From assembly GCF_028368995.1 (NCBI RefSeq), contig NZ_JAQNDL010000002.1, positions 545,724 to 609,723 on the forward strand: 64,000 nucleotides of DNA. Reading direction: 5' to 3'. Below are positions 4,166-63,637 of this stretch, piece after piece. How positions within the stretch are numbered: the first letter of the stretch is position 1; each line of letters begins with the position of its first letter. Under the pieces are notes generated by a model. That model was not told where the DNA came from. It searched no databases and was given only the letters and a program-made list of their open reading frames with translations. The DNA is from Nannocystis bainbridge (GTDB lineage: Bacteria; Myxococcota_A; Polyangia; Nannocystales; Nannocystaceae). A program made the position numbers and the translations under genes.

Positions 4166-4256
4166 GTGCGCGCGAGTATTGGCGATTTCCCCGGCGCTCG
4201 CCAGCGACTCGCGGTTCGGGCGACGCGCAGCGGGCGTGCGCCCGCTCGGCGGCGGC

Positions 4257-6952: not shown

Positions 6953-7024
6953 GGCCTGTCCCCGCGGACAGGTGCGAGAGGGCATGTCCTGGCGGGCATG
7001 TTCTTGAGGGCAGGTGCCCGAGGG

Positions 7025-7206
7025 CATGTCCTCGGGGGCATGTCCTCGGAGCATGTCCTCGGAGCATGTCCTCGGAGCATGTCCTCGGAGCATGTCCTCG
7101 GAGCATGTCCTCGGAGCATGTCCTCGGAGCATGTCCTCGGAGCATGTCCTCGGAGCATGTCCTCGGAGCATGTCCTCGGAGCATGTCCTCGGAGCATGTC
7201 CTCGGG
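7025..7206 (+). repeat. 13-bp tandem array GCATGTCCTCGGA x ~13 (half-site of the GGACATGTCC palindrome), flanked by inverted-repeat hairpins
   Basis: Perfect units at 7038, 7051 ... 7194, with degenerate units upstream. The left flank has ggcctgtccccgcggacaggtgc and the right flank gacaggtgcgggggcacctctgtc. It is intergenic, between a stop at 6952 and the fghA start at 7319. Confidence 0.9.
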
Positions 7207-7318
7207 GACAGGTGCGGGGGCACCTCTGTCGCGGTGAGCAGGCTCGGCAGCAGCGGGCGGGCCGCGGCGCTCGCGGCGGGCTACCGCGCGGGGCCGCCCG
7301 GTGCTAGGGTCGCGGGTG

Positions 7319-27800: not shown

Positions 27801-27902
27801 GAGGTGCGGCGGGAGTGATGGAGGAGGGGGCGGGAGCGGGGGAGCGGCGGCGGGGACGATGCCCGCGGGCGTGTCGGCGGTGGGCGGAGCGTCGGGGGCT
27901 GC

Positions 27903-28060
27903 GCTGTCGGACATGTCTTCGGGGACATGTTCGGAGGGGCCGGTGGGTGTGGTGGTCGTTTCGGACATGTCTTCGGGGACATGTACGGAAGGACCGGTCG
28001 GTGCGGCGGACTTGGCGGACATGTCTGGGGAGACATGTGCGGAGGGACCGGTGGGCTGCC
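27903..28060 (+). repeat. ~54-bp tandem repeat x3, each unit carrying a double hairpin GGACATGTCTTCGGGGACATGTWCGG
   Basis: tcggacatgtcttcggggacatgttcgg... / tcggacatgtcttcggggacatgtacgg... / ggacatgtctggggagacatgtgcgg. It lies between the divergent PAP2 gene (-) and the gene starting near 28370 (+). Confidence 0.85.
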
Positions 28061-28369
28061 AGGCGCCGAGTGACTCGCGAGTCGGGGCCAGCGCGGTCCG
28101 GGCGGGGACGAGCGGGTGGGCGGCGGCCGGCGAGGCGGTCAAGACCACGAGCAGGGCGGAGAGCAGGCGGCGCGGCATCGCGGGTCGGCCGAGTATGCCC
28201 GGTCGCGGCGGGACCGGGCAGCCGCGAGATGGTCTTCGGGACAGGTGAACCCATGCGGTCCGCGGCGAGGAGTGGCGGCTCGGGGGATTCGCGGGCGAAG
28301 CACGATGTTTGCGTCGATCGCGCGCGGCTGGCGGCGGGCGCACGCGTCGCGGTAGATTGCGTCTCTGGC

Positions 28370-38478: not shown

Positions 38479-38572
38479 ACGACATGTCTCATGGGACATG
38501 CCTACAATGACATATCGTGAATGACATGTCGTGGAGAGCATGTCCACAAGGACATGCTCTTCGGGGCAGCCT
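38478..38572 (+). repeat. cluster of GACATGTC-type hairpin elements between convergent genes
   Basis: gacatgtctcatgggacatgcc ... atgacatatcgtgaatgacatgtcgtggagagcatgtccacaaggacatgctcttcgggg. Confidence 0.8.
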
Positions 38573-39469: not shown

Positions 39470-41317
39470 TCACGGCGCGGGCACGGGCTCGGCCCCGAGG
39501 TCGCGGGCGAGGTCGGCGAGCTCGCCGATGGGGACCTGCAGGGCGGGCAGGCGGGTGATGTCGGTCCGCGCGGCCTGGGCGATGGTCTCGCTGGCGCGCA
39601 TGACGAGGCCGCCGTGGGGATCGGCGACCACGGTGTAGCCGGCCTTGCGCAGGCGGGTGAGGCGAGCCTGGGCCGAGGGCGAGAGGTCGGTGGCGGTGAT
39701 GCGCAGGGAGGGCACGCGGCCGGGCCAGATGGCGGCGAGGTAGGCGGTGATCCGCGGGGGGTAGACGACGCCGCCGGCTGTCTTTTCGTTCAGGTGAACG
39801 TCGACCAGAGCGGGGTAGCCGCTGACGTCGCAGCGCACGGCGCCGTGGAGGTGGCTGGTCCACATGGCCTCGGGGCTGACAGGCGCGGGCCACAGGCCGT
39901 CGAACCACGCGGCGATGGCGTCGTAGCTGGGCAGGCGCTGGCCGCCGAGGGCGTCGCCGAGGCGCTGGACCTCGGCGCCGAACCGCTCGCCGCGCTCCTC
40001 ACGACGCAGGCGCAGGAAGATCGCAAGCACGGCGATCGCCGCGGCGAGGTACCACAGGCCGAACAGCAGCAGGCCGCCGCAGACGATGGCGACGAACAGC
40101 AGGCCGAGGCCGCCGCCCTGGACCTGCTGCTGGCGCCGCTCGTCGGCGTGGCGGGCCAGGAGGGCGCGGCGGGCCACGGCGAGGGCGCTGGCGGGGATCC
40201 GCCCCTCGGGCTCGGGTTCGGCGGCGTCGGGCCGGTCGGGGAGGATCGAGCGGACGGCGGCGAAGAGGGCGTGGGTGGCGACGGCGGGCTGGCCGTCGGC
40301 AGGCTCGCGCACGGCGGCGACGAGCAGCGGGGCCTCGGCCAGGCCGCCGGGCGGAGGGGCGAGCGCCGCGGTCTGGGCGGGCGCGCTCTGGCTGGCGCCA
40401 GGGCGGTTGTAGAGGATGGAGAGCAGCGAGGAGTTCGAGGGGTTGATCGCGGCGCCGGGGAGGGTGTCGCTGGCGCTGGTGCGAGCGGTCGGGTCGCGCG
40501 CGAGGCTGGCCCCGAAGACAGGTGCGTCGGCGGGCGCGGGCAGCGGGCCGGACAGGACGGCGGGGTCGAGGCGGGCGGCGGGATCGGGATCGGTGTCGGG
40601 GCCGGAGATGTCCGCAGGGACAGGTGGGGGCGGGAGGCCGGCGGGCAGGGTCTGCGCGGCGATGGGGATGTCCGCGGGGACAGGTTGGATGTCCGCGGGG
40701 ACAGGTGAGATGTCCACGAGGACAGGTGAATACGAGCTGTCTGCGGGGACATGTGAGATGTCCGCGGGGACATGTGAGATGTCCTCGGGGACAGGTGCGT
40801 CGGCGGCAGCACGTTCGCGGACGGCGTGCTCGGCGGCGGCGGGCCGGGGGCCGGGCGGGCGGCCGGGGCGTGAGCCGGGCTGGACGGCGGCGGCCGGGCC
40901 CTGCAGGGTGTCGCCGGGGTGGGGCGGGGCTTCGCCGGCGAGGTCGATGTCCTTGAGGACAGGTCGCACCGGGGCGGGGTCGGCAGGGGCGGGGGCGGGG
41001 CCGATCGAGAGCAGGGTGGTCGGCGGGACGGGCGCGGCGAGCAGGCTGGCGGCGAGCCCGGGCTGGTGGCGCACGCGGACCGGCGCGGCGAACTCGAGGT
41101 CGGGATCAGGGCTGTCTTTGGGGACAGGTGACCCCTGGACCAGGTCGCGCACGGCCTGCTGGATGGCCCGCTCGTAGAGGGCGAGGGCGTCGGCGACGGC
41201 CGGCGGCAGCCCATGCGATCGAGCGCACGCGGGGCAGTCAGCGGCGCCGCGGATGTCGTCGAGCGAGAGCGCGTGCTGACAGTGCGGGCAGCGCAACGCG
41301 AGGGTCGGAGAGAGCAC
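39470..41317 (-). CDS. zinc-ribbon / Pro-rich linker / single-TM / C-terminal domain protein
   Basis: CPHCQHALSLDDIRGAADCPACARSH (CxxC...CxxC), TM LGLLFVAIVCGGLLLFGLWYLAAAIAVLAIF. The linker contains PEDISHVPADISHVPADSSY, encoded by the hairpin repeats at 40600-40810. Confidence 0.65.
   Translation of the reverse strand: MLSPTLALRCPHCQHALSLDDIRGAADCPACARSHGLPPAVADALALYERAIQQAVRDLVQGSPVPKDSPDPDLEFAAPVRVRHQPGLAASLLAAPVPPTTLLSIGPAPAPADPAPVRPVLKDIDLAGEAPPHPGDTLQGPAAAVQPGSRPGRPPGPRPAAAEHAVRERAAADAPVPEDISHVPADISHVPADSSYSPVLVDISPVPADIQPVPADIPIAAQTLPAGLPPPPVPADISGPDTDPDPAARLDPAVLSGPLPAPADAPVFGASLARDPTARTSASDTLPGAAINPSNSSLLSILYNRPGASQSAPAQTAALAPPPGGLAEAPLLVAAVREPADGQPAVATHALFAAVRSILPDRPDAAEPEPEGRIPASALAVARRALLARHADERRQQQVQGGGLGLLFVAIVCGGLLLFGLWYLAAAIAVLAIFLRLRREERGERFGAEVQRLGDALGGQRLPSYDAIAAWFDGLWPAPVSPEAMWTSHLHGAVRCDVSGYPALVDVHLNEKTAGGVVYPPRITAYLAAIWPGRVPSLRITATDLSPSAQARLTRLRKAGYTVVADPHGGLVMRASETIAQAARTDITRLPALQVPIGELADLARDLGAEPVPAP
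40600..40810 (+). repeat. tandem hairpin units GAGATGTCC-NCGGG-GACAKGT (~19 bp, about 8 copies) embedded in frame in a coding linker
   Basis: ggatgtccgcggggacaggtgagatgtccacgaggacaggtgaa...ggggacatgtgagatgtccgcggggacatgtgagatgtcctcggggacaggtg. Confidence 0.85.
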
Positions 41318-41695: not shown

Positions 41696-41818
41696 CCATG
41701 GGCGAGCGAGAGCGGTCGTTCGGGACGGCGCGGCGAGAGCGATGTTTTGGAAACCTCGACCGGGCGCGGAGGCCATGGGCGAGCGAGGGCGGTCGTTCGG
41801 GACGGCGCGGCGAGAGCG
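41696..41818 (+). repeat. 45-bp direct repeat x2 (77-bp period) in the 700-bp leader of the M16 peptidase gene
   Basis: catgggcgagcgagagcggtcgttcgggacggcgcggcgagagcg and catgggcgagcgagggcggtcgttcgggacggcgcggcgagagcg. Confidence 0.8.
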
Positions 41819-42038
41819 GGGTCAGGTTCAAAAAAACACGACCGGGGGCGGGGGCCGGTGCGGGCGAGATCGGCGGAACGAAGGTCAGGGCCCGGGAATG
41901 CGGGCCGAGGGCGCGGCAGTCGGGGCCCGCGCTCGGGCGCGGAACGGCGGCTCCGGGCCGTTTTGGCGGTGTCTGGGGCGCTTGCGGCTGGGTCCGCCGG
42001 ACGCGCGGGCGAGGATGCGCGCGGCGGCGAGTCGCGGT

Positions 42039-44799: not shown

Positions 44800-45060
44800 G
44801 GGTGAGGGGCCTGTCCTTCGGGACAGGCGGGGCGCGGTGCGGACGGGGGCATGGGATGTCCCGAAGGACATGTCCTTCGGGATGAGACGCGGCGACGCTG
44901 GTGAGAGCGCGGGATGTCCCGGAGGACATGCTCTTGGGGACATTGTCAATAGTCACCGGCGTGGGATGTCCCGGAGGACATGTCCCTCAAGACATGCACG
45001 GGCCGGCGAGTCCGTGGTGGCGCGCGGACAAGCATGTCCCTCAGGACATGTCCTCAGGGC
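44800..45060 (+). repeat. BIME-like cluster of palindromic elements (core GGACATGTCC; 24-bp perfect palindrome TCCCGAAGGACATGTCCTTCGGGA)
   Basis: ggcctgtccttcgggacagg; gggatgtcccgaaggacatgtccttcgggatg; gggatgtcccggaggacatgctcttggggacat; gggatgtcccggaggacatgtccctcaagacatg; gcatgtccctcaggacatgtcctcagg. Confidence 0.9.
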
Positions 45061-45269
45061 CAGTCGTCGAGATCGAGGCCGCGGGACAGCTCGGGGTCGT
45101 CGGCCAGGAGGTCGCGCAGGGTCGCCTCGCGCAGGCCGAGGGCGCGGGCGCCGGCGCTCACGCTGGCCTGGGCGGCGAGCACGGCCCGGACCTCGCGGCG
45201 GAAGGCGAGCGGGTCGGTGCGGCGCAGGGCCAGCAGCAGCGGTTCACGAGGCTCGGCGGGCAAGGTCAC
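45054..45269 (-). CDS. possible small Fis-like HTH protein (71 aa)
   Basis: LAAQASVSAGARALGLREATLRDLLADDPEL resembles a Fis-type HTH. It could be a GC-driven spurious ORF. Confidence 0.25.
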   Translation of the reverse strand: MTLPAEPREPLLLALRRTDPLAFRREVRAVLAAQASVSAGARALGLREATLRDLLADDPELSRGLDLDDWP

Positions 45270-48982: not shown

Positions 48983-49508
48983 CGCCCGTTACGCTAGTCT
49001 TTTCGCGCTGCTGCTGCAACGAAGGGACAAAATGCCGCGCGCGGCCCGAGGTCCGCGCGGGCAGGGTGAGGGCCTGCCGTGGCGGAGGCTGTTCAGCGCC
49101 GCGCGCGCCGTCGCGGACGCCGTTCGCCGCCAGTGAGGCCCGAGCAAGACGGCGTGCAGCGGTTCGGCTGCCGATGACCGCGCCGACGTCGACGCTCGAG
49201 ATGGCGCCGCGGATGAAAGTCGACTTGTCGTCAGCCAAGAAGCGACAAAGGCGAGCGATGTCGTCAGGCTCCCCCGCGCGGACGACCGGGTGTGATCGAT
49301 CAGCGACTGACAGTCCTTCTCGGGGATGCTCTCGTCCGGTGGCGGATGTGCCAGCGGCGGACGTCCCGGCAGTCACCTGTCCGGACCTCAGTCCGCTCGC
49401 TGGGGCGGGTCAGATCTGCGAGGCGGCCGGCGAGCCCCTCGACGAGGGACGCGACGCCGGCCTCGCCGCCGAGCAATGCTCGTGCACCTGCTTCGAGCGG
49501 CTGCTCGC

Positions 49509-50780
49509 TCAGCGACGGCGCGCCTGGATCGCATCGAGCGCGGCGTGTTCGTACGCGCGACCGGAGGCGGCGGCGGCGGCGTCGCCCTCGGCGAGCACGA
49601 GCGAGCCGTCGGCGAGGGCGCGGAGGATCGTGTGCGCGGGGGCGGCGATGACGTGAGCGTCCTGGGAATCGGTGGGGAGCGCGACGAACCGAACTTCGAG
49701 ATCGAGGGCCTCGCACAGAGTGTTGAGCAGGCCGATCACGGCGGGCACGTCGAGCCAGTCCGACCGGTCGCCGGCGACGATCTCGAATGTGCAGTCGGGC
49801 AGGAACGCTCGCAGGCGATAGGCGTCGCGCAGCTGATCGGGATCCGCGTCGTCGTCGTCGTCGTCGTCGTCCGACTCGACATGGGAGACCTCTTCGAACA
49901 AGACTTCGTCGAGCGCCGGCGCGACGAGGTCGGCGAGCCGGCGCAGCAGGTGATCGTGGCGGTTGGGCCAGGCGTCGGTCTCGGTGTCGAAGACGAGACC
50001 CTGGCCGATGGGCACGCCGGAGTCACTCGGAGGCGGCGCGTCGTAATCGTCGTCGTCCGCGCCGCTCGCGGGCGGCGCGGTGTGTCTCGCCAGCGCGTCG
50101 AGCAGGCACCGGCGGTTGTCGTCGTCACGCACGACCTCGAGCATCGCCTGCAGCTCGGCGGTGACGGCGGGGCGCGCCAGCCGGCCGAGCGCGCGGGCGG
50201 CGGCCGCCAGCGCGGGGTTCCAGTCGCCGGGGAGGGCCGCGTTTGCGACTGCGATCATGCGGGCGAGCGGGAGGCGCTCCAGCGAGCGCTGCGAGCCGCC
50301 GAAGTAAGCGGCGCAGGTCGGGTCGTCGACGAGCCGTGACGCGAACAGGGCGTCGAGGGTGGGTTCCGGCGGGATCCGCGGCTCGCTCGCGATGGCCTTT
50401 GCGAGGCCCGTGCGTACGCCGGGGGGAATTCCGTCGTCCGCGAGGCAGCGCGCGAGCCAGGCGGAGAGCGGGGCGAGCAGAGGCGGCTCGCGCAGGAGCT
50501 CGGCGACGATCGAACCGTACACATACCCGACGTCGCGCGCCTCGTCGGGCGCGACGGTGACGAGGGCGCGCACGAGGTCGTCGAGCGCACCGAGGTCGCC
50601 GCGGCGGATCCGGTGGGCGAGCAGACCGGTCGGTGCGTGCTGCGACGAATACGAGTCGAGCGCGGCGTGAGTGGTGGCGAGTTCCAGGTCGAGCCGCGGG
50701 GCCCGTCCCGGGGTCGGCTGGACTTCGAGGTACAGGAACGGGGAATCGTGCTCGCGGCGGATCGGGGTCGGCTCGTCCAC
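49509..50780 (-). CDS. hypothetical protein (423 aa) with poly-Asp tract
   Basis: Natural composition. The D8 run is encoded by a (GTC)8 repeat on the forward strand near 49845-49870. Confidence 0.6.
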   Translation of the reverse strand: MDEPTPIRREHDSPFLYLEVQPTPGRAPRLDLELATTHAALDSYSSQHAPTGLLAHRIRRGDLGALDDLVRALVTVAPDEARDVGYVYGSIVAELLREPPLLAPLSAWLARCLADDGIPPGVRTGLAKAIASEPRIPPEPTLDALFASRLVDDPTCAAYFGGSQRSLERLPLARMIAVANAALPGDWNPALAAAARALGRLARPAVTAELQAMLEVVRDDDNRRCLLDALARHTAPPASGADDDDYDAPPPSDSGVPIGQGLVFDTETDAWPNRHDHLLRRLADLVAPALDEVLFEEVSHVESDDDDDDDDADPDQLRDAYRLRAFLPDCTFEIVAGDRSDWLDVPAVIGLLNTLCEALDLEVRFVALPTDSQDAHVIAAPAHTILRALADGSLVLAEGDAAAAASGRAYEHAALDAIQARRR

Positions 50781-50894
50781 GGACCGAGGGTACTGCGATC
50801 CGCGGATTGTGCGAAGGCGCCCGGGGTCACGAATCGCGCCGGCATTGCATTGGTGCGCTGACGCGTCCGCCGGCTTGTGGCACCCTCATCGAGG

Positions 50895-51602
50895 ATGCGG
50901 CGGCGATGGGTCCACCTCTCGAGGTGCGCGACGATCCTCGCCGGCTGCGGTGCGTGCACGCGGCCGACCGTGAGCCGTCCGCCCGTGGTCGCGTCGGAGA
51001 GCCGCCCGATCGAGCCGCGCGTCGATGTCGACGACGTGAACGCTGATGGCGCCGCGGCTGCCGAAGCAGAGCCGGAGCGTCACGGCAAGGTCGTGAGGTT
51101 GGACCCACCCGAGCCGCCCGCGCGCGACGAGTACGACGTCTGGGGCGACGTCGAAGGCACGCCGGTCGGCGAGGTCTACGGCGCCGGCGGGCTCGGCTGC
51201 CCTCGCGGAGTCGAGCCGTCGCCTCCCTCTTCGACGCGGCACGGTCGTCGGCCCGTCGCGCGCTTGCGGTCGCTCGAGGCCGAGGGCGCACTGTCCCACG
51301 GCGCGGCCTCGTCGAGCTTCCGCGGGCGCGCCGACAGCCTCCGCGATTGTCAACTCGCGGCCATGGAGGAGCAGCCGGAGCTCGCCGGACGGCTGCGCTT
51401 GCGAATCGACATCGGCGCCGACGGACGCGTGCTCACGGCCGCGAGCGACGGGCTCGATGCGATCGCCGGCTGCGTCCGCGAGGTCGCGCTGCGCTGGCGG
51501 TTCGCACCGGCGGACGCGGGCTCGCGGATCGCCGCAGAGTTCGACCTGCGCACCGAACCCGCCGCGCCCGAGCGTCCGCGACCGCCTTCCTGTCGGAGGT
51601 GA
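50895..51602 (+). CDS. lipoprotein with TonB C-terminal-like domain
   Basis: Lipobox ILAGCGAC. C-terminal LRLRIDIGADGRVLTAASDGLDAIAGCVREVALRWRFAPA fits a TonB-C fold. Confidence 0.6.
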   Translation: MRRRWVHLSRCATILAGCGACTRPTVSRPPVVASESRPIEPRVDVDDVNADGAAAAEAEPERHGKVVRLDPPEPPARDEYDVWGDVEGTPVGEVYGAGGLGCPRGVEPSPPSSTRHGRRPVARLRSLEAEGALSHGAASSSFRGRADSLRDCQLAAMEEQPELAGRLRLRIDIGADGRVLTAASDGLDAIAGCVREVALRWRFAPADAGSRIAAEFDLRTEPAAPERPRPPSCRR

Positions 51603-51832
51603 TGCGCTCCGTCCGCCGCTCGTCGCGCCCCGCCGAGCCGGCCCCGCGCGATCACCAGAGCCCCACGGGGATAGCCCCACCGCGCCCGGGCTGCATGCCC
51701 GCGCCGCGGACGCGAGGTGGGCAGGCGGGCTTTGGGTGGCCGCCTGCGAGCGCAGCCCCGCGCAACCTCACGCTCTCGGGCTGGCCTTTGGTGCAGGCGA
51801 CCCTCGCGGCCTCTCGGTACGCTCGCCGCCCC

Positions 51833-52612
51833 ATGACAAGCACCAATTCACCGCGGATCGCCATCGTCACCGGCGGCGGCAACGGCATCGGCCGGGCCAC
51901 TGCCCTCATGCTCGCCGAGGCCGGCTATGCCGTCGCCGTGTGGGACCTGGCCGAACAGGCAACCGAGGAGGTCGTCTCCGCGATCACGGCCGCGGGCGGC
52001 GTCGCCATCGCGCGCAAGGTCGACGTCAGCAAGCCGGAGGACTGCGCCGCCGGGGCCGCCGCGGTGGTCGAGCGGTTCGGCCGGATCGACGTCCTGATCA
52101 ACAACGCCGGCGTCGTGCGCGACGGCCAGCTGGTCAAGGTCAAGGACGGCCAGGTCGTCGGCCAGATGAGCGCCGAGCAATTCCAGTTCGTCCTCGATGT
52201 CTGCCTCAAGGGCGTGTTCAACTGCACCCAGGCGGTCGTGCCGACGATGATCGCGCAGAAGTACGGCCGGATTGTGAGCACCAGCTCGGTGGTGGCGCTG
52301 TACGGCAACTTCGGCCAGACCAACTACGTCGCGGCCAAGGCCGGCGTGATCGGCATGACGCGCGTGTGGGCGCGCGAGCTCGGCCGCTACGGCATCACCG
52401 CCAACGCGATCGCGCCGGGTTTCATCGCTACGGCGATGGTGCAGAGCATGCCGGAGAAGGTCCTGCAGTCGATGATCGACCACACCCCGGTCGGCCGCGC
52501 GGGTCAGCCGGACGACATCGCCCGGGCCTTCGCCTTCCTCGCCGACGAGAAGTCGAGCTTCATCAACGGCGCGGTCCTCAGCGTCGACGGCGGCTCGGTC
52601 CTCGGGACCTGA
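51833..52612 (+). CDS. SDR-family oxidoreductase, 3-oxoacyl-ACP reductase (FabG)-like
   Basis: IVTGGGNGIGRA, NNAG, YVAAKAG and PGFIATAM. Confidence 0.85.
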   Translation: MTSTNSPRIAIVTGGGNGIGRATALMLAEAGYAVAVWDLAEQATEEVVSAITAAGGVAIARKVDVSKPEDCAAGAAAVVERFGRIDVLINNAGVVRDGQLVKVKDGQVVGQMSAEQFQFVLDVCLKGVFNCTQAVVPTMIAQKYGRIVSTSSVVALYGNFGQTNYVAAKAGVIGMTRVWARELGRYGITANAIAPGFIATAMVQSMPEKVLQSMIDHTPVGRAGQPDDIARAFAFLADEKSSFINGAVLSVDGGSVLGT

Positions 52613-53339
52613 GCGCGCCCGTCGAGGACGCCGGCGCGCCGTCGATGCGATGGCGCGCGGCGCTGCGGGGTGTCGCTCGCCCCGCGCTGAGCCGCACGAG
52701 GGATCGTTCCGGTTCACGCGGGCTGCGAACTCAAGGCGGTGTCGAGGCCGGCCCACAACTGTACGGCGCGCGGCGAGGGCAGGCCGAGCGCGACGAGCTT
52801 TGCCTGCTCCGATGCTTCGGCGGCGGTCCGCCGCACGGTAGCGACCGCGAGCCGGCCGGTGAAGTCGAGCTGTCCGATGAGCCAGGCGTCGAACATTCGC
52901 GGGCGAGCTCGCAGATCAGCGCATTCCGTAAACGACACTGCCGGTGGTGCTGCCGCCGGCAGACACGGAATCACCAGAGTCTGTGGTCGTGGCGCCCATG
53001 ACGGTGGAATCCATGGTGCCCGAATCGGTGGAGGTGCTCGTGTTCGCGGTGGGGGAATCCGTGGTGTCGAATCGGTAGAGGTGCTCGTCCGGGGCAGGCG
53101 TGCGCGCGGAAGCCCGAGGGCACCCGACCTCGATTCGTCGCGCAAGCGAGCTGCCAGGGCAAGTCCGAGCAAAAAATCGTGACGAGCATGGCGAGAGCAT
53201 GGCCGCGCGGAGCGGGCTGTCAGGTTGCCGGGAAGGGTCGGGTAAGGGCGCCGGTGAGCCCTCGCCAGGGTCGCGGAGAATGAGGGCTCGGATCCGCTGC
53301 GCTGGTCTTCGCAGACAAATCGGATTATCGTGCGAGGCG

Positions 53340-53516
53340 ATGGCATTTCCGACCGCAGTCAACGCTCAGATCACCGACGAACTCGTTCAGACGGCCCTCC
53401 GCGCGGGCGTCGAGCAAGACACCGCCCGCAAAGTCGTCGAGTCGATCCTCGATCACCTGGCGAGCCGGGACGTCCTGCTCAGGGAAGGCAGCCCCACGCC
53501 TCAGGCCGCGGATTAG
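53340..53516 (+). CDS. possible small protein (58 aa)
   Basis: MAFPTAVNAQITDELVQTALRAGVEQDTARKVVESILDHLASRDVLL lies 115 bp upstream of the secreted-protein gene. Support is weak. Confidence 0.25.
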   Translation: MAFPTAVNAQITDELVQTALRAGVEQDTARKVVESILDHLASRDVLLREGSPTPQAAD

Positions 53517-53629
53517 CGCATGAAGGCGCCGAGCAGGCGCGAGCGACCGAACGCCCGGCCTGCGGGCCGGGCGGTCCTGAGCGCGGATGGACCAGCCGCG
53601 GCCGACGCGGGCGTGATAGAGGTGAGAAA

Positions 53630-55054
53630 ATGCCTCGACTGTTTGCGCCCGCCCTGGTGATCGCGTCGTGTCTGTTCTCGAGTCCCGCCTGGGCCGTGCA
53701 GACCGACACCGAATTGGTCTGTCTACTGGTCGGAAAGGACTATCACAACGGGACCGATCCGACGTCGGCGCATCAGCCGGACCTGCGGCTGTTCGGCACC
53801 GACCTCGGGTTCTCGTTCCGCCACGACGACAGCGTGGTGATGCTGTTCGGCGACACGTGGATCGAGGAGGACTTCATTTGCGAGCCGCCGAGCTTCACCG
53901 ACGATTCGCTGGCGTTCATCGACCTCGCGGAGGACGACGACCCGGAGGATTGCCTCGACCTGGTGTTCCCGACCGACCTCGCCGACGTGCCGCTGCCGAT
54001 CGAGGTGTGGCAGTCGGGCGTGCTGCAGAACATGGGGCCGCTGCGCACGCCGCTGACGGGCTTCAGCGATGGGCGCCAACTATACGGGATGTTCACCGGC
54101 GACGCGCAGACGTGCCTGGCGGCGCCGGTGTGCCCGGAGGGCCTGACCTGCGTGGGCGGTCTGTGCGGCGACGCGACGAGCTCGCAGGCGGGGTTCGGGA
54201 CGCTGGCGTTTCGCGTCAAGATCGCGTCGGCGACATCGTCGAACCCGACGGTGTTCAACGTCGGCCACGAGTGGCCGACCAACAAGTTCGTCAACCCGAC
54301 CAGCCGCGCGATCGGGGCGCTCGACGAGCGAGATCCGGACAACAACGACTACGAGCCCGGCGAGGAGCCGGACGAGCTGCTGGTGTGGGGGCGACCGGGG
54401 TTCGCGGCCGCGGGCACGGGCACGGCGGATCTTTACCTGCTGCATCACCCGCTGAGCACGCTGAACGGGCCGGGCACGACCATCAATTGGACGCCGCGTT
54501 ACTTCGCGGGGATGAGCGGGTCGGTGCCGACGTGGTCGTCGACGCAGACGGACGCGGTGCCGGTGATCGCGCTGGAGGATGTCGATCCGGTGCTTCACTC
54601 GTCGGTGGCGTATGTGCCGGCGATCCAGAAGTGGGTGCTGCTTTACAGCGGGCGGTGGCCGGGCACGGCGTCGACGCCGACGACGGGGGTGTACATGCGC
54701 ACGGCGCCGCACCCGTGGGGTCCGTGGAGCGAGGCGGACCTGATCTGGCACGCGGTCGACGACGGGGCCTACGATTGCCCGGGCGGGTTCATGTACGACG
54801 AAGAGAGCGTCGGGATGTCCTGCACGCCGACCGATCCGTATCGACCGGGTGCGTTCGAAGCGTGCCCCGCGGAGTCGGCGGATCCGAACGGGGACCTCGG
54901 GGTCGAGTACGGGATCAACATCCTCGACACGTTCACCGCGAGCGGCATGGCCATCGACACGGCGACGATCTACTGGAACCTCTCGACGTGGAACCCGTAC
55001 CGCGTGGTGCTGATGAAGACGGACCTCGACGACAGCGTGATCATCCCGCCGTGA
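53630..55054 (+). CDS. secreted hypothetical protein (475 aa)
   Basis: Signal MPRLFAPALVIASCLFSSPAWA, VMLFGDTWIEEDF, and several Cys pairs. GC is slightly below the window average. Confidence 0.7.
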   Translation: MPRLFAPALVIASCLFSSPAWAVQTDTELVCLLVGKDYHNGTDPTSAHQPDLRLFGTDLGFSFRHDDSVVMLFGDTWIEEDFICEPPSFTDDSLAFIDLAEDDDPEDCLDLVFPTDLADVPLPIEVWQSGVLQNMGPLRTPLTGFSDGRQLYGMFTGDAQTCLAAPVCPEGLTCVGGLCGDATSSQAGFGTLAFRVKIASATSSNPTVFNVGHEWPTNKFVNPTSRAIGALDERDPDNNDYEPGEEPDELLVWGRPGFAAAGTGTADLYLLHHPLSTLNGPGTTINWTPRYFAGMSGSVPTWSSTQTDAVPVIALEDVDPVLHSSVAYVPAIQKWVLLYSGRWPGTASTPTTGVYMRTAPHPWGPWSEADLIWHAVDDGAYDCPGGFMYDEESVGMSCTPTDPYRPGAFEACPAESADPNGDLGVEYGINILDTFTASGMAIDTATIYWNLSTWNPYRVVLMKTDLDDSVIIPP

Positions 55055-55147
55055 GCCGGCGAGCGCGGTGAGCCTTTCGCGGCGACTGCGAAAAAAAATC
55101 GAAGAATTTTGGATCGGGCGGGCGGCCAGCTCACCTATCCCCTTTGC

Positions 55148-55759
55148 ATGAAGACCATCCTGACCGCCTCGCTCTTCGCTGCGTCCCTGGCCTACGGCCA
55201 GCTCCCGGGGCGTGATTCCGACCTGGGCCCGGAGCGCGACGCCGGGTCCGAAGCGCGCCTCCACGCTCCGGAGCCCGCCAGGGCGTCCGCGGAGGCGCCG
55301 CAGGGGAACCAACCCGGCAGCCTCTGCATCATGCCGGGGGTATCCGCGAGCGTGGCGAAGGCCAACCCGGGCACCCAGTACCCTCTGGGCGGAATGAGAC
55401 CGCCCGCCGTGTCATGCCACGACAACAAGGGCAAGCACGCCGTCGGGTACCACTTCAAGCTCTACGTCGGCCCGGGCACCGACTGGCCCGACGCCGTCTG
55501 CAGAGTCGACTACCTCCACAAGCCCGAGGAGCTCACGAGCGCGTGCTGGAACGCCTGCATCGAGCAGAAGAAAGCTTGTTACGCGAAGTTCAGCGGCAAA
55601 AAGGGCAAGCAGCAATGCGATGAGCAACTCATTGCATGCAAGGCCGTCAACGACTCGAAGAAGCACCCGGCCATCCTTCAAGAGCGTTCGAACAGTTTCT
55701 GCAAGCAGCCGGCGCCACCATTCCCGCAGCCGCCGGCGCTCACGGTGACCCCGCCGTAG
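55148..55759 (+). CDS. small secreted Cys/Lys-rich protein in a low-GC segment
   Basis: Signal MKTILTASLFAASLAYGQ, 8 Cys, and a K-rich C-terminal half. A/T-ending codons (aaa, caa, tgt, ttc) are atypical for this genome. An AT-rich leader gcgaaaaaaaatcgaagaattttgg precedes it. Confidence 0.65.
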   Translation: MKTILTASLFAASLAYGQLPGRDSDLGPERDAGSEARLHAPEPARASAEAPQGNQPGSLCIMPGVSASVAKANPGTQYPLGGMRPPAVSCHDNKGKHAVGYHFKLYVGPGTDWPDAVCRVDYLHKPEELTSACWNACIEQKKACYAKFSGKKGKQQCDEQLIACKAVNDSKKHPAILQERSNSFCKQPAPPFPQPPALTVTPP

Positions 55760-56429: not shown

Positions 56430-57080
56430 ATGGCGGACCCTGGTGGCGAGCCGCGGCGAGCCGCGGGGGTCCCGAGGTGGATTCCGGCGGTGCTGCGATC
56501 GATCGTGATCGGCGGCTATCCGCTGGTGGTCTACTTCGGCATGACGCGCTGGAACCCGCGCACGCTGGCGCTGGTGCTCGCGGTCGCGCTGCTGCCGGGG
56601 CTGGTGCTGCGCCTGCGCGAGGCCCGGCGCGAGGACCTGTGGCCGGTGCTGCGGGTGCCGCTGTCGCTGTTCGGGCTGTTCGCCGTGGCGGCGCTGTCGG
56701 GCGAGCAGCGGCTGTTCATGGCCCTGCCGGTGCTGGTCAACCTCGGGCTGCTCGCCAACTTCGCGGCCAGCCTGCGGGGGCCGGTGTCGCTGGTCGAACG
56801 GTTCGCGCGCCTGCAGGAGCCCGAGCTGCCGCCGGGCGGGCCGGCGTACTGCCGCACCTGGACCAAGATCTGGTGCGGGTTCTTCGTCGCCAACGCGGCG
56901 GTCAGCGCCGGCCTGGCGCTGTGGGCCCCGGCGTCGTGGTGGATGCTCTACACCGGGCTTTTGGGGTACCTGCTGATCGGGGTAATGTTCACCGTCGAGT
57001 TCATCGTCCGCAAAGTGACGTTCCGTCGCTTCGGCGACGGGCTGCCCGACCGCCTGCTCCGCCGCTTGCTCCGCGCATGA
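56430..57080 (+). CDS. integral membrane protein (cluster-associated, unknown function)
   Basis: Five to six TM helices. Its stop overlaps the next start (ATGA). Confidence 0.65.
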   Translation: MADPGGEPRRAAGVPRWIPAVLRSIVIGGYPLVVYFGMTRWNPRTLALVLAVALLPGLVLRLREARREDLWPVLRVPLSLFGLFAVAALSGEQRLFMALPVLVNLGLLANFAASLRGPVSLVERFARLQEPELPPGGPAYCRTWTKIWCGFFVANAAVSAGLALWAPASWWMLYTGLLGYLLIGVMFTVEFIVRKVTFRRFGDGLPDRLLRRLLRA

Positions 57081-58999
57081 GGTCCTTCGTCCCGCTCGTC
57101 CACACCGATCCCGCGGCGCCGGTCGCCGTGGGCGAGGCCGTGCGCACGGCGGGCGAGCTGATGCGCGACGCGCGAGCGGTGGCTGCCAGGCTGCCGGCGG
57201 CGACCGCGGGCAGCGAGGTGCTGGTGGTCTGCGGCGATCGCTACCACCTGGCAGTGACGACCCTGGCGGCGTGGCTGCGCGGCCACGCGGTCGCGCTGCC
57301 GCCCAACGCCCAGCCGGCGGCGGTGCGCGCGCTGGCCGGGCGAGCCTCGGTGGTCGCGCTGCTGCACGACTCGGACCTGGCTGACGCGCAGGACGTCCGC
57401 GAGTGGCTCCCGGAGCATGTCCCCGGGGACATGACCGATCCGACATGGCCCGAAGCGCTGGCGGCGGACCGCCGGCTGGCGGTGGTGTACACCTCGGGCA
57501 GCACCGGCGACCACCAGCCGTGCGTCAAGACGGCGGCGCAGCTGCTCGGCGAGGCGCAGACGCTGGCGGCCACGTTCGCGCTGCGGGCCGGCGAGGTGGC
57601 GCTGGCGACGGTGCCGCCGTATCACCTGTACGGGCTGCTGTTCGGGATCCTGGCGCCGCTGGCCGCCGGGGCGGCGTTCGCCCGCGAGACGCCGCTGCAC
57701 GCCGAGACGGTGGCCCACGTGGCGCGTCAGGTGGCGGCGACGGTGCTGGTCAGCACGCCGGCGCACCTGCGCGGGCTGACGGTGCTGCAGCGCGGCGACC
57801 TGCCGCCGCTGTCGCGGGTGTTCTCGTCGGGCGCGCCGCTGCCGCGGGCGACCGCGGACGAGCTGTTGACGGGGCTCGGGCTGCAGGTGACCGAGGTGTA
57901 CGGCTCGTCCGAGACCGGCGGGATCGGCTGGCGTCGGCACGAGGATGTCTCGGGGGACATGTCCCCGGAGACAGCCTGGGCGCCGCTGCCGGGGGTCGCG
58001 GCCGAGGTAGCGAGCGACGGGCGGCTGCTGCTGCGCTCGCCGTTCCTGGCCCCGGACGCGCCGGTGCCGTACCCGTGCGAGGACCGGATCGAGCTCGACG
58101 CGCGCGGCGGGTTCCACCTGCGCGGGCGGCTCGACGGGGTGGTGAAGATCGCCGGCAAGCGGGTGGCGGTCGCCGAGGTCGAGCAGCGGCTGCTGGCGCT
58201 GACGGCGGTGGCCGACGCGGCGGTGGTGGCGGTCGAGTCGCCGGGGGCCCGCGGGCACGAGCTGGTGGCCGCGATCGTGGGCCGCGAGGCCGGGCGCGAC
58301 GCCGGCGAGCTGGTCGCGGAGCTGCGCCGGGCGCTGCTGCCGTGGTTCGACCCGGTGGTGGTGCCGCGGCGGATCAAGGTGGTGCCGGCGCTGCCGCGCG
58401 AGCCGAGCGGGAAGCTGACGCGGCGCAAGCTGCACGCGCTGCTCGGGCTCGACGCGCCAGCGGGCGCGGAGAATGAAGGCACGGCGGCCGGGCGAGGTGG
58501 CGCGAGGGACATGTCCGCGGGGACAGCCAACGAGGCCGCAGGCGGCGTGAAGGACATGTCCTCGGGGACAGCCGCGGCGGGCACGCCGGCGACCGAAGGA
58601 GATGGCGCGAGGGACATGTCCTCCGGGACATCGAGTGAGACCCGCGCGTTCGCGCTGCGCGGGCACGTGCGGCGCGACGACGGCGAGGCTTCGGTGCACG
58701 AGGTCGAGGTCGGGGTGCCGGTCGACCTGGCGTTCTTCCGCGGGCACTTCGAGGGGCGGCCGGTGCTGCCGGGGGTGGCGCAGCTGACGGCGCTGGTGGT
58801 GCCGCAGGTGGCGGCGCTGCGGCCGGAGCTGGGGCGGCTGCGGCGGGCGGCGCGGCTCAAGTTCACCCGGCCGATCGCGCCGGGCGACGCGCTGGTGCTG
58901 CGGCTCGAGGTCCGCGGGACGCAGGTTCGCTTCTCGCTGGCGCGCGCGGGCGAGGTGGTCACGGCGGGCGCGCTCGAGTACGACGCGCGCGGTGGTTGA
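57077..58999 (+). CDS. AMP-dependent synthetase/ligase fused to C-terminal FabZ/FabA-like hotdog dehydratase
   Basis: AMP-binding motif VVYTSGSTGDHQPC and EVYGSSETGG. C-terminal FFRGHFEGRPVLPGVAQLTAL. The interdomain linker carries RDMSAGT/KDMSSGT/RDMSSGT copies of the palindromic element. Confidence 0.8.
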   Translation: MRSFVPLVHTDPAAPVAVGEAVRTAGELMRDARAVAARLPAATAGSEVLVVCGDRYHLAVTTLAAWLRGHAVALPPNAQPAAVRALAGRASVVALLHDSDLADAQDVREWLPEHVPGDMTDPTWPEALAADRRLAVVYTSGSTGDHQPCVKTAAQLLGEAQTLAATFALRAGEVALATVPPYHLYGLLFGILAPLAAGAAFARETPLHAETVAHVARQVAATVLVSTPAHLRGLTVLQRGDLPPLSRVFSSGAPLPRATADELLTGLGLQVTEVYGSSETGGIGWRRHEDVSGDMSPETAWAPLPGVAAEVASDGRLLLRSPFLAPDAPVPYPCEDRIELDARGGFHLRGRLDGVVKIAGKRVAVAEVEQRLLALTAVADAAVVAVESPGARGHELVAAIVGREAGRDAGELVAELRRALLPWFDPVVVPRRIKVVPALPREPSGKLTRRKLHALLGLDAPAGAENEGTAAGRGGARDMSAGTANEAAGGVKDMSSGTAAAGTPATEGDGARDMSSGTSSETRAFALRGHVRRDDGEASVHEVEVGVPVDLAFFRGHFEGRPVLPGVAQLTALVVPQVAALRPELGRLRRAARLKFTRPIAPGDALVLRLEVRGTQVRFSLARAGEVVTAGALEYDARGG

Positions 59000-59027
59000 T
59001 ATGGTCGGAGGGACGGACGAGCGCGAG

Positions 59028-59825
59028 ATGGCCCGAGGGCCAGGTGACGTGTCCGCCGGGACAGCCGCGTTCCGGCCGTGCGCGCTGATCCCGACCTACG
59101 ACAACCCGCGGACGGTGCGCGACGTGGTGCTGCGGGTCAAGGCGCACCTGCCCGCCGTGGTGGTGATCGACGACGGCTCGGGCCCGGAGGGGCGGGCGGC
59201 GGTCGAGGCGATCGGGGCCGAGGGGCTGGCGCACGTGCGCCGGCGGACGCAAAACGGCGGCAAGGGGGCGGCGGTCAAGACCGGGTTCCAGTTCGCCCAC
59301 GAGCTCGGCTACACCCACGCGCTGCAGGTCGACGCCGACGGGCAACATGACCTCGGGGACATCCCGCGCTTCCTCGCGACCGCGCAGGCGCGGCCGGACG
59401 CGCTGGTGCTGGGGGCCCCGGTGTACGACGCCTCGGCGCCGAAGGGCCGGCTCATCGCCCGCAAGATCACCCTGTTCTGGACCGACTTCGAGGCCGGGCG
59501 CGGCGTCATCACCGACCCGATGTGCGGCTTCCGGGTCTACCCGCTGACGCCGGCGCTGGCGCTCGGGCGCACCGGCGACCGCATGGACTTCGACATCGAG
59601 ATCGCGGTGCGGCTGGTGTGGGCCGGGGTGCCGGTGATCAACCTGCCGACGAAGGTCCGCTATATCGGCCGCGACGAGGGCGGGGTGTCGCACTTCCGGG
59701 TGTTCGGCGACAACGTCAAGATCTCGTGGCTGCACACCCGGCTGTCGTTCCAGCGGGTGATGGTGCGCCCGTGGCTCGACCTCTACCGCCGCCTGCGCCG
59801 CCCGGCGCTGCCAGCCGGCCGCTGA
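59028..59825 (+). CDS. family-2 glycosyltransferase
   Basis: CALIPTYDNPRTVRDVVLRV...VVVIDDGSGPEG...QVDADGQHD has the GT2 DxD architecture. Confidence 0.75.
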   Translation: MARGPGDVSAGTAAFRPCALIPTYDNPRTVRDVVLRVKAHLPAVVVIDDGSGPEGRAAVEAIGAEGLAHVRRRTQNGGKGAAVKTGFQFAHELGYTHALQVDADGQHDLGDIPRFLATAQARPDALVLGAPVYDASAPKGRLIARKITLFWTDFEAGRGVITDPMCGFRVYPLTPALALGRTGDRMDFDIEIAVRLVWAGVPVINLPTKVRYIGRDEGGVSHFRVFGDNVKISWLHTRLSFQRVMVRPWLDLYRRLRRPALPAGR

Positions 59826-60083
59826 CCGAGAGGACAGGTTCGATCGGCCATGGCGCAGCAGGCAGGTTTGAAAGGACATGTCCCGGGGGACAGCCGCGAC
59901 GAGGCCGCGAGCGGCGGAGCGGCGGCCGGCGCGGGCGGAGCGAACGGGCGCGGGGCGATGGTCGGCGCGGGCGGCGGGGCAGCGGCCGGTGATGCGAGCG
60001 AGCGCGGGCCGATGGTCGTGGCGAGCGGCGGTGGGGAGAGCCAGGCGGCGGTCGTCGCGGGCGCGGGCGGCGATCGGGCGTGG

Positions 60084-62889: not shown

Positions 62890-62944
62890 CCCACGCTCCC
62901 GTCTGTCCTTCCGGACAGGTCTTTTCAGACATGTCCTCACGGTC

Positions 62945-63637
62945 ATGGCGGTCACGATCGCCGCGGTCGCGCCGCTCGGCCAGGCCCAGGCGGTCGAGCC
63001 GCTGCCGGTGACGGTCGCGGCGCCGCTGGTCACCAGCATCACGCTCGACCAACTGCTGGGCCAGTTCGCCGGCATGAGCGGGCTGCAGGCGACGTTCCGC
63101 GAGGAGAAGCGGATGGCGCTGCTGGCGGCGCCGCTGGTCAACGAGGGCACCATCTATTTCGTGCCGAACGGCAAGAAGCCGCGCCTGGCCCGCCACACGG
63201 CCAAGCCGGCGCGCTCGGTGGTGGTGATCGACGGCTCGGCGCTCAAGCTGGCCGACGACGCCGGCCGCGAGGAGATCGCGCTCGACAAGAGCCCGATGGT
63301 GCGGCTGTTCATCGACTCGTTCATCAAGATCTTCGCCGGCGACCGCGAGGCGCTGACGAACATGTACGCGATGGACCTGCAGGCCGAGGGCCAGCGCTGG
63401 ACGCTGAAGCTGAAGCCGAAGCTGACGCCGCTCGACAAGCTGATCGAGCGGGTCGAGATCGCCGGCGACGGGGTCGTGATCGCGTCGATGCGGGTGGTCG
63501 AGGTCGGCGGCGACGAGGCCGTGACCACGTTCTCGGCCGTCGACGCGACCCGCAAGTTCTCCACCGAGGAGCTGACGGCGCTGTTCAGCCTGCCGCCGAA
63601 GCCGGCCCCGGTCGCGGCCGCGCCGGCGAGCCGCTGA
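62945..63637 (+). CDS. LolA-like outer-membrane lipoprotein carrier family protein
   Basis: MAVTIAAVAPLGQAQA then TFREEKRMALLAAPLVNEGTIYFVPNGKKPRLA...RWTLKLKPK. A hairpin CTGTCC-TTCC-GGACAG sits immediately upstream. Confidence 0.65.
   Translation: MAVTIAAVAPLGQAQAVEPLPVTVAAPLVTSITLDQLLGQFAGMSGLQATFREEKRMALLAAPLVNEGTIYFVPNGKKPRLARHTAKPARSVVVIDGSALKLADDAGREEIALDKSPMVRLFIDSFIKIFAGDREALTNMYAMDLQAEGQRWTLKLKPKLTPLDKLIERVEIAGDGVVIASMRVVEVGGDEAVTTFSAVDATRKFSTEELTALFSLPPKPAPVAAAPASR

What the first reader, a model, noticed from the sequence alone, without database searches (positions are those of the whole stretch)
57411..58630. In-frame insertions of the palindromic element inside a biosynthetic enzyme (AMP-ligase-dehydratase fusion)
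Copies of GGGGACATGTCC fall within the ORF: EHVPGDMTDP (about 57411), EDVSGDMSPETA (about 57941), and three copies in the interdomain linker as RDMSAGT, KDMSSGT and RDMSSGT (58500-58630). The same happens in the Zn-ribbon protein linker (40600-40810, PEDISHVPADISHVPAD). It also happens at the N-termini of the GT2 (RGPGDVSAGTAA) and the giant protease. This is analogous to Rickettsia palindromic elements, which insert into coding sequences.
Basis: partly seen in the sequence, partly recalled or inferred. Interest (0 to 1): 0.7.

Follow-up and report, generated by a model that had tools for sequence, protein, structure and literature searches.

The report
Nannocystis short palindromic repeat in genes
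A 14-base palindrome (TGTCC-4 bases-GGACA) is scattered very densely through Nannocystis DNA, mostly just after genes. Some copies sit in frame inside proteins, including this enzyme, where they add short peptide repeats to floppy linkers and loops.

Summary
The window is Nannocystis bainbridge. That unit is a 14-bp inverted repeat, TGTCC-N4-GGACA, with invariant arms, a strict 4-nt spacer and a free loop (26 exact copies vs 0.05 expected).

It is the only outlier among all 1024 palindromes of this design. A scan of 185,579 species' genomes found it almost only in Nannocystis and Nannocystaceae.

Copies lie mainly downstream of genes: 1.18/kb in convergent, 0.60/kb in tandem and 0.03/kb in divergent intergenic DNA, against 0.10/kb in genes.

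In the AMP-ligase/dehydratase:
- Three copies lie in a disordered interdomain linker. This linker varies between species and is absent in a close relative and in all distant homologues.
- Two older copies lie in loops. One corresponds to a 6-7 aa insertion relative to outgroups.

The same DNA is read as DMSxGT, HVxxDM or PVPADI in different proteins, so it is a DNA-level repeat, not a peptide motif.

Verdict: an undescribed REP-like repeat family with tolerated in-frame coding copies. The Rickettsia palindromic element (RPE) analogy holds for the outcome, not the anatomy. The spreading mechanism and function are not established.

The parts
57077..58999 (+). AMP-ligase / FabA-ApeI-like dehydratase fusion gene (640 aa), host of the coding copies
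   Evidence: Pfam AMP-binding, AMP-binding_C, FabA (the ApeI-like hit scored 27.0 bits, below its 28.5 cut-off); 100% identical to N. bainbridge P0001; GC3 frame plot
57416..57433 (+). Site 1: single unit CATGTCC-CCGG-GGACATG, read as H114-V-P-G-D-M119
   Evidence: At the orthologous position in other Nannocystis species, with the left arm partly decayed. Coil, pLDDT about 62
57946..57973 (+). Site 2: two abutting units (each with 1 mismatch) forming a 28-bp near-palindrome around GGACATGTCC, read as D290-VSGDMSPE-T299
   Evidence: Hairpin -14.1 kcal/mol, z = -4.6. 6-7 aa insertion relative to outgroups, kept in Nannocystaceae. Coil loop between strands 284-287 and 301-303
58507..58525 (+). 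Linker copy 1: GGACA|TGTCC-GCGG-GGACA, read as R-D-M479-S-A-G-T
   Evidence: linker residues 461-522 have pLDDT < 50
58552..58570 (+). Linker copy 2: GGACA|TGTCC-TCGG-GGACA, read as K-D-M494-S-S-G-T
58612..58630 (+). Linker copy 3: GGACA|TGTCC-TCCG-GGACA, read as R-D-M514-S-S-G-T
   Evidence: The linker insert is 177 bp here, 168 bp in N. pusilla and 279 bp in N. exedens. It is 105 bp without intact copies in N. radixulma and 0 bp in L005, L006 and L007
59002..59063 (+). Ligase/GT2 junction: two decayed units plus one exact unit (59050-59063), read as N-terminal extension of GT2
   Evidence: In relatives the ATG inside the unit is the only start codon available before the conserved FRPCALIP
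59874..59892 (+). Copy at the 5' end of the LpxL-like acyltransferase (GHVPGD); translation uncertain
62904..62945 (+). Intergenic copies between the thioesterase and LolA-like genes (one exact, one with 1 mismatch)
   Evidence: Orthologous in four species with identical arms and four different loops
40609..40961 (-). Array in the Pro/Ala-rich linker of the Zn-ribbon membrane protein (21-bp period x6, plus solo copies at 40609 and 40948), read as PVPADI / HVPADIS
   Evidence: Orthologues carry 2-8 PVPAD(S/I)-type repeats in a hypervariable linker
27905..28055 (-). 54-bp x2.8 array in the N-terminal region of a PAP2 phosphatase gene (27042-28178), read as HV(S/P)(P/E)DMS x3
6957..7210 (.). Intergenic cluster: a solo unit 5 nt after a stop codon, decayed units, then a 13-bp x14 tandem array (GCATGTCCTCGGA) ending in an exact unit
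38481..38554 (.). Cluster between convergent genes, including a 10-11 bp stem hairpin GAGCATGTCC-ACAA-GGACATGCTC
   Evidence: fold -12.7 kcal/mol, z = -7.6
44812..45062 (.). Cluster of five exact units (three of them abutting doublets) downstream of the M16 peptidase stop codon
45951..45964 (.). Solo unit immediately after the stop codon of the PDZ-protein gene (convergent spacer)

Best explanation
The DMS/HVxxDM segments are coding-region copies of a Nannocystis-specific, very abundant short palindromic DNA repeat. Its unit is RSM-TGTCC-N4-GGACA-KSY: invariant 5-bp arms, a strict 4-nt spacer and a free loop. By extrapolation there are about 1,700-4,900 exact copies per 12-Mb genome.

Shown:
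- It is a DNA-level family whose main habitat is the spacer downstream of genes.
- Units occur alone, abutted (which creates GGACATGTCC) and in tandem arrays.
- Arms stay conserved at orthologous sites while loops and flanks diverge.
- In genes, copies persist in disordered linkers, surface loops and N-terminal regions. They are in frame, with array periods that are multiples of 3, and mostly in the two frames that avoid Cys-Pro.

Inferred:
- The element acts or is tolerated as a transcribed 3'-end hairpin, or as a site for a sequence-specific factor (REP-like).
- It multiplies mainly by local duplication or slippage, plus an unidentified copying process.
- The coding copies are tolerated passengers that lengthen linkers. 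They are not functional peptide motifs.
For: Enrichment and design:
- 26 copies vs 0.05 expected, with only the N4 spacing used.
- Sole outlier among all 5-N4-5 palindromes at 512-540x. Compensated arm variants occur at chance level.

Taxonomic range:
- About 4 copies per 10 kb in five Nannocystis loci, 0.5 in a Nannocystaceae MAG and 0 in a Myxococcales MAG.
- Of the 80 listed stretches (85 found) in a scan of 185,579 species' genomes, 77 are Nannocystis, Nannocystaceae or one unclassified Myxococcales MAG; 3 are strays.

Location:
- Convergent 1.18/kb, tandem 0.60/kb and divergent 0.03/kb of intergenic DNA; genic 0.10/kb.
- Loops are pyrimidine-rich on the transcribed strand, 120:64.

Conservation: arms 92% vs loops 55% vs flanks 61-71% at orthologous sites. 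Excluding the reference species, the figures are 86, 54 and 67%.

Coding copies:
- Three frames give DMSxGT, HVxxDM/PVPADI and CPxGH, with counts of 25, 41 and 7.
- The ligase linker copies are lineage-specific and vary in number.
- The Zn-ribbon linker behaves likewise.
- AlphaFold places all ligase copies in coil or low-confidence regions.
Against: - No transposase, RAYT (REP-associated tyrosine transposase) or other copying enzyme was found. No clean empty-site/filled-site pair or target duplication was seen.
- Most copies lack a U-tract, so they are not canonical intrinsic terminators.
- A 5-bp stem alone is weak; linker copies fold no better than shuffled sequence.
- Site 2 is kept even in a 55%-identical homologue whose genome has few copies, which hints that this copy or its peptide may matter locally.
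- Gene calls were my own GC3-based heuristic.
- Copies within arrays are not independent, so the p-values are optimistic.
- Only 9 orthologous sites underlie the conservation figures.
Confidence: 0.8

Rival explanations
1. An RPE-like selfish mobile element that transposes as a discrete unit into genes and spacers, or a REPIN mobilised by a RAYT (REP-associated tyrosine transposase).
For: - High copy number and genus specificity.
- The same 21-bp unit GATGTCCGCGGGGACAGGTGA forms arrays at unrelated loci: the Zn-ribbon linker in the window and the GT2 start in L005.
- Abutting doublets form 28-30 bp palindromes resembling REPIN doublets.
- REPIN populations persist by vertical inheritance (PMC3116915; bioRxiv 10.1101/2022.05.22.493013).
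Against: - Nothing is conserved beyond about 8 bp per arm, and there is no GTAG/CGTC tag.
- Loops have no master sequence: the commonest loop pair is 17 of 144.
- Arms are conserved in place at orthologous sites while loops drift, which dead selfish copies would not show.
- No RAYT-like ORF lies in about 0.9 Mb of held DNA.
- No target-site duplications were seen.
Confidence: 0.2
2. A double-stranded DNA site for an abundant sequence-specific protein acting at gene 3' ends (for example topoisomerase/gyrase recruitment or a nucleoid protein), rather than an RNA hairpin.
For: - Invariant arms, strict N4 spacing and free spacer sequence are typical of a dimeric DNA-binding protein.
- There is no stem covariation.
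- The 2:1:0 distribution (convergent: tandem: divergent) matches where positive supercoils accumulate.
- E. coli REP/BIMEs are reported to bind gyrase and IHF (own knowledge; PMC3479197 mentions IHF recruitment).
Against: - The loop composition is biased with respect to the transcribed strand, which a symmetric duplex site does not predict.
- No candidate protein was identified.
Confidence: 0.2
3. A word kept abundant by a genome-wide process, like cyanobacterial HIP1 (methylation- or repair-linked) or Neisseria/Haemophilus DNA uptake sequences.
For: - It is short, genus-specific and present in both genes and spacers, with biased reading frames in tolerant protein regions.
- Uptake sequences also form inverted pairs downstream of genes (own knowledge).
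Against: - Intergenic density is 6-12 times the genic density, and copies are nearly absent from divergent spacers.
- The unit is a spaced palindrome, not an oriented 9-12-mer or a contiguous word.
- Tandem arrays are common.
Confidence: 0.08
4. Ordinary conserved protein sequence, or operator sites of a transcription-factor regulon.
For: - Sites 1 and 2 are conserved in the genus.
- One-mismatch look-alikes in GT2 (QHDLGDIP) and the lyase (QLAEGTAF) are ordinary conserved sequence.
Against: - The same DNA is read in three frames and on both strands, and most copies are non-coding.
- Outgroups lack the segments.
- Only 1-2 copies lie in 32 kb of divergent promoter spacers.
Confidence: 0.02

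Closest known systems
REP / BIME / REPIN repeats of Enterobacteria and Pseudomonas
   Same: - Short hairpin-forming palindromes in hundreds to thousands of copies.
- Lineage-specific sequence.
- Extragenic but transcribed positions after or between genes.
- Clusters and doublets.
- Stems conserved while loops vary.
- Long-term vertical persistence.
   Different: - The unit is only 14-20 bp.
- There is no GTAG/CGTC tag.
- No RAYT (REP-associated tyrosine transposase) was found.
- Head-to-tail abutting arrays have a 13-14 bp period.
- A sizeable minority of copies lies in frame inside genes.
Rickettsia palindromic elements (RPE)
   Same: A palindromic repeat found in frame inside protein-coding genes, adding peptide segments at positions that do not disturb the fold.
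   Different: - RPEs are discrete 100-150 bp elements encoding about 30-50 aa.
- Here the unit encodes 5-7 aa and expands as arrays.
- Its main habitat is 3' intergenic DNA.
- There is no sequence relationship to RPEs.
DNA uptake sequences (Neisseria DUS, Haemophilus USS) in coding regions
   Same: - Genus-specific short words at about one per 1-5 kb.
- Often inverted pairs downstream of genes.
- Coding copies concentrated in poorly conserved protein regions and in preferred reading frames.
   Different: - Uptake sequences are oriented and non-palindromic.
- They have a known receptor-based function.
- Nothing links this element to DNA uptake.
HIP1 (GCGATCGC) of cyanobacteria
   Same: A highly iterated short palindrome conserved at orthologous sites beyond neutral expectation, present in genes and spacers.
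   Different: - HIP1 is contiguous with no spacer or hairpin.
- It is not concentrated at gene 3' ends.
- It does not form arrays.

Membership tests
REP/REPIN-RAYT | Short imperfect palindrome able to form a stem-loop | tested here: met
   Arms of 5 bp (up to 8-11 bp with the extension) and a 4-nt loop. Folds of -5 to -14 kcal/mol for intergenic copies.
REP/REPIN-RAYT | High copy number, predominantly extragenic | tested here: met
   1.4-4 exact copies per 10 kb. Intergenic density is 0.6-1.2/kb against 0.10/kb genic.
REP/REPIN-RAYT | Conserved 5' tetranucleotide tag (GTAG or CGTC) | tested here: not met
   The flank profile shows only a palindromic R-S-M / K-S-Y extension and no tag.
REP/REPIN-RAYT | Cognate RAYT (Y1 transposase) gene flanked by inverted copies | tested here: inconclusive
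   tblastn with approximate RayT and IS200 TnpA sequences found nothing significant in about 0.9 Mb of held DNA. A complete genome could not be searched.
REP/REPIN-RAYT | Doublets of inverted REPs (REPINs) as the replicating unit | tested here: inconclusive
   Abutting doublets exist. Some form 28-bp palindromes with complementary loops (44857-44884); others are direct duplications (45035-45062).
Rickettsia palindromic elements | Discrete element of about 100-150 bp with conserved internal sequence | tested here: not met
   No conservation beyond +/-8 bp of the core.
Rickettsia palindromic elements | In-frame presence in ORFs at surface, loop or linker positions | tested here: met
Intrinsic (Rho-independent) terminators | G+C-rich stem followed by a U-tract | tested here: not met
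   Only a few of 46 oriented intergenic copies are followed by a T-run. The stem sequence is invariant rather than merely G+C-rich.
HIP1-like iterated palindromes | Comparable abundance in coding and non-coding DNA | tested here: not met
   Intergenic excess of 6-12 fold, with divergent spacers nearly empty.
DNA uptake sequences | Oriented non-palindromic 9-12-mer recognised by the uptake machinery | tested here: not met
   The unit is a spaced palindrome. Uptake specificity cannot be tested with these tools.

The most novel reading that the evidence does not exclude
TGTCC-N4-GGACA is the recognition site of an unknown sequence-specific factor confined to Nannocystaceae that acts at the ends of transcription units. 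This could be a hairpin- or duplex-binding termination, RNA-stability or supercoil-management system. Selection for that function would keep thousands of arms intact in place. Under this reading the element is not a RAYT-type selfish repeat, and its spill-over is a steady source of new peptide linkers and even start codons.
Probability: 0.25. Interest if true: 0.75.

Novelty: new variant of a known kind. Interest (0 to 1): 0.55.

Why it matters
- The element gives large-genome myxobacteria, a major source of natural products, a previously undescribed genome-wide sequence feature.
- It explains odd low-complexity segments and N-terminal extensions in Nannocystis proteins, and likely start-codon mis-calls, because the unit contains an ATG.
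- It offers a compact, well-defined motif (10 fixed bases) for finding the factor that recognises it.
- Its 2:1:0 distribution over convergent, tandem and divergent spacers, with arms conserved in place, makes the old question of whether REP-like repeats are host-functional or selfish directly testable in a new lineage.
- It also shows how a non-coding repeat can lengthen interdomain linkers of biosynthetic enzymes without harm.

Tried and rejected
- **Source contig:** looking up the window's own contig through P0001 failed, as it is not on record. Gene maps for the window are therefore my own GC3-based calls. An earlier local-frame classifier was unreliable inside the arrays and was replaced.
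- **PAP2 array:** I first read the 27905-28055 array as non-coding in the plus-strand ORF, which gave an implausible Arg/Cys/Trp peptide. It is coding on the minus strand in a PAP2 gene.
- **One-mismatch look-alikes:** those inside conserved GT2 and lyase sequence are not insertions.
- **RAYT/IS200 search:** tblastn with sequences recalled from memory found nothing.
- **Rfam:** no hit in the whole window.
- **Literature:** searches for the motif, for Nannocystis palindromes and for myxobacterial REPs found only p53 papers or irrelevant hits.
- **Longer elements:** I looked for a MITE-like element around the core and found none.
- **Block A alignment:** the arm-conservation test on intergenic arrays in block A was noisy because array copies cannot be aligned reliably.
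- **Operator hypothesis:** rejected because divergent spacers are nearly empty.
- **parS/CsrA resemblance:** a likeness to parS (TGTTCC-ACGT-GGAACA) and to CsrA sites was considered from memory only and not pursued.
Full report
**Source and gene**

The window has about 72% G+C. The ORF under the finding is 100% identical to an AMP-binding protein of Nannocystis bainbridge (P0001).
- The stop-to-stop ORF 56477-58999 over-extends. The GC3 frame plot and orthologues put the start at 57077 (MRSFVPLV...).
- The 640-aa protein carries AMP-binding, AMP-binding_C and a FabA-like dehydratase domain; the ApeI-like model also hit, just below its curated cut-off.
- It sits in a conserved cluster: ACP, ligase-dehydratase, GT2, LpxL-like acyltransferase, aromatic amino-acid lyase, thioesterase, LolA-like, MMPL. 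From my own knowledge this is a flexirubin/aryl-polyene-type lipid cluster.

**Checking the observation**

All the quoted peptides are present.
- GGACATGTCC occurs 8 times against 0.09 expected, and GACATGTC 14 times against 0.84.
- The site near 57411 is CATGTCCCCGGGGACATG, which does not contain GGACATGTCC.
- No copy lies at the N-termini of the M16 peptidase or the 3216-aa protein.

**The real unit**

Marking half-sites in every cluster shows one recurring design: TGTCC, four free bases, GGACA.
- There are 26 exact copies against 0.05 expected, plus 26 one-mismatch copies against 1.3 expected.
- The spacer is strictly 4 nt; other spacings of 0-15 give 0-1 copies.
- The reverse arrangement with a 4-nt spacer is at chance.
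- GGACATGTCC is what appears when two units abut (GGACA|TGTCC). Seven of the 8 copies have an exact N4 partner, while 19 of the 26 units stand alone.
- The 13-bp x14 array at 7024-7205 is a tandem run of a decayed unit.
- Among all 1024 possible 5-N4-5 palindromes this one is the sole outlier at 512-540 times expectation. Variants with a compensated base-pair change are at chance. The arm sequence itself matters, not merely the ability to pair.
- Flanks extend the palindrome weakly to R-S-M / K-S-Y. Nothing is conserved further out, and loops have no master sequence.

**Distribution among organisms**

- Orthologous loci of N. pusilla, N. radixulma, N. exedens and two read-archive assemblies (L002, L005) carry about 4 copies per 10 kb, like the window. 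A 55%-identical Nannocystaceae MAG carries 0.5, and a Myxococcales MAG none.
- A scan of one genome from each of 185,579 species for GGACATGTCC-N4-GGACATGTCC found 85 stretches. Of the 80 listed, 77 are Nannocystis, Nannocystaceae or one unclassified Myxococcales MAG, and 3 are strays.
- Away from the ascertained sites, cultured Nannocystis genomes carry 1.4-2.3 further copies per 10 kb.
- Extrapolated, this means roughly 1,700-4,900 exact copies per 12-Mb genome.
- I found no description of the element in the searchable literature and no Rfam family.

**Where copies sit**

I used my own GC3-based gene calls on 776 kb of Nannocystis DNA.
- Density is 1.18/kb in convergent spacers, 0.60/kb in tandem spacers, 0.03/kb in divergent spacers and 0.10/kb in genes.
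- Adding the pattern-ascertained loci gives 62 convergent, 71 tandem (+16 at gene 5' ends), 2 divergent (+3) and 54 genic copies.
- This 2:1:0 pattern follows the number of gene 3' ends facing the spacer.
- The first copy often lies 2-30 nt after a stop codon.
- In tandem spacers, loops oriented with transcription are pyrimidine-rich, 120:64. Copies within arrays are not independent, so this is a trend rather than a firm probability.
- Few copies are followed by a T-run, so they are not canonical intrinsic terminators.

**Conservation in place**

I aligned window 55.7-64 kb with three other species.
- Copies sit at orthologous positions with arms 92% identical, loops 55% and flanks 61-71%.
- Comparing only the species not used to pick the site gives arms 86%, loops 54% and flanks 67% (9 sites).
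- The copy upstream of the LolA-like gene has identical arms and four different loops in four species.
- This argues for constraint on, or continual restoration of, the arm sequence. Decaying selfish copies would not show it.

**The coding copies**

A palindromic unit can be read in only three ways:
- nTG TCC NNN NGG ACA gives (M)SxxT.
- nnT GTC CNN NNG GAC Ann gives (H/P)VxxD(M/I/S).
- TGT CCN NNN GGA CAN gives CPxG(H/Q).

Genic copies use these 25, 41 and 7 times respectively, so the Cys-Pro frame is avoided.

In the ligase (positions):
- Site 1 (H114-M119) and site 2 (D290-T299) use the second frame.
- The three linker copies (M479, M494, M514) use the first frame.

In other genes the same DNA gives different peptides:
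- PVPADI/HVPADIS x6 in the Zn-ribbon protein on the other strand.
- HVPEDMS x3 in a PAP2 phosphatase.

Coding arrays have periods of 21, 45, 54 or 60 bp, all multiples of 3. The 13-14 bp arrays occur only outside genes.

- In alignment A1 the interdomain linker is short in all distant homologues and in the 77%-identical P0011. In seven Nannocystis proteins it is expanded by 105-279 bp carrying 2-5 DMSxGT copies. N. radixulma has an expansion with only a decayed trace, RDSADAGT. Spacers between copies are not alignable between species.
- Site 2 corresponds to a 6-7 aa insertion relative to outgroups P0050, P0052 and P0098. It is retained through Nannocystaceae, including an exact copy in L006.
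- Site 1 is retained in the Nannocystis clade with a drifting left arm.
- The Zn-ribbon protein's linker likewise carries 2-8 PVPAD(S/I) repeats that differ between species.

**Structure**

An AlphaFold2 model (mean pLDDT 81.8) puts residues 461-522 below pLDDT 50. Sites 1 and 2 lie in coil with pLDDT about 62-65.

**Interpretation**

Shown: this is a DNA-level, genus-specific repeat family whose coding copies are in-frame, lineage-variable additions at structurally tolerant positions.

Inferred:
- The 3'-end habitat, the strand-biased loops and the in-place conservation of invariant arms point to a REP-like role. That role could be a transcribed hairpin or a site for a sequence-specific factor.
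- Local duplication generates the arrays.
- Coding copies are passengers filtered by selection on frame and location.

Limits of the family assignments:
- It is not a REP in the strict sense, because the GTAG/CGTC tag is absent and no RAYT (REP-associated tyrosine transposase) was found (inconclusive).
- It is not an RPE (Rickettsia palindromic element), because it is not a discrete 100-150 bp element.
- How it spreads between loci remains open. The identical 21-bp unit forms arrays at unrelated loci.

**Verdict**

The motif needed redefining, one cited example fails, and the RPE analogy holds only for the outcome. The element appears undescribed, and I rate it a new variant of the REP-like kind.

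Noticed in passing
window 58992-59063; L003 11856-11930; L005 2560-2660: At the ligase/GT2 junction the only start codons before the conserved FRPCALIPTYDNP are ATG/GTG triplets inside element copies (for example MSAGTGE x4 in L005). Outgroups instead have overlapping stop and start codons. The repeat seems to have supplied the GT2 start codon and a 20-35 aa N-terminal extension.
   Followed up: partly
window 7024-7205: A 13-bp x14 near-perfect (98%) tandem array (GCATGTCCTCGGA) fills the spacer before an esterase gene (7301-8164). It could vary in copy number between strains.
   Followed up: no
protein P0129 (N. pusilla orthologue of window 39470-41317), alignment A2 columns about 200-400: This orthologue's linker reads LSPRT.../HLSPRTAYLSPRT instead of PVPADS and rejoins the common sequence downstream. 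The same repeat array appears to be translated in another frame, through either a double frameshift or an assembly error.
   Followed up: no
proteins P0023, P0024, P0028, P0046 (distant ligase homologues), C-termini: These carry a C-terminal extension ending ...(L/A)SDM(S/A)GG(S/T)CV, i.e. another DMS-type copy at a different place in the same enzyme in a more distant clade.
   Followed up: no
window about 49500-55700: About 6 kb (several genes between the 603-aa protein gene and the short-chain dehydrogenase/ACP genes) has no counterpart in the syntenic loci of N. pusilla, N. radixulma or N. exedens. It is a lineage-specific insertion next to the biosynthetic cluster.
   Followed up: no
window about 41700-41870: Upstream of the M16 peptidase, an unrelated direct repeat of roughly 50 bp (CCATGGGCGAGCGAGRGCGGTCGTTCGGGACGGCGCGGCGAGAGCG) occurs twice.
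   Followed up: no
L001 4639-4860 and 20276-20690; L047 3248-4642: Long intergenic arrays hold the unit at periods of about 58-110 bp (about 69 bp in the first array) with partly conserved spacers. Longer composite repeats built around the unit therefore exist in other Nannocystis genomes.
   Followed up: no
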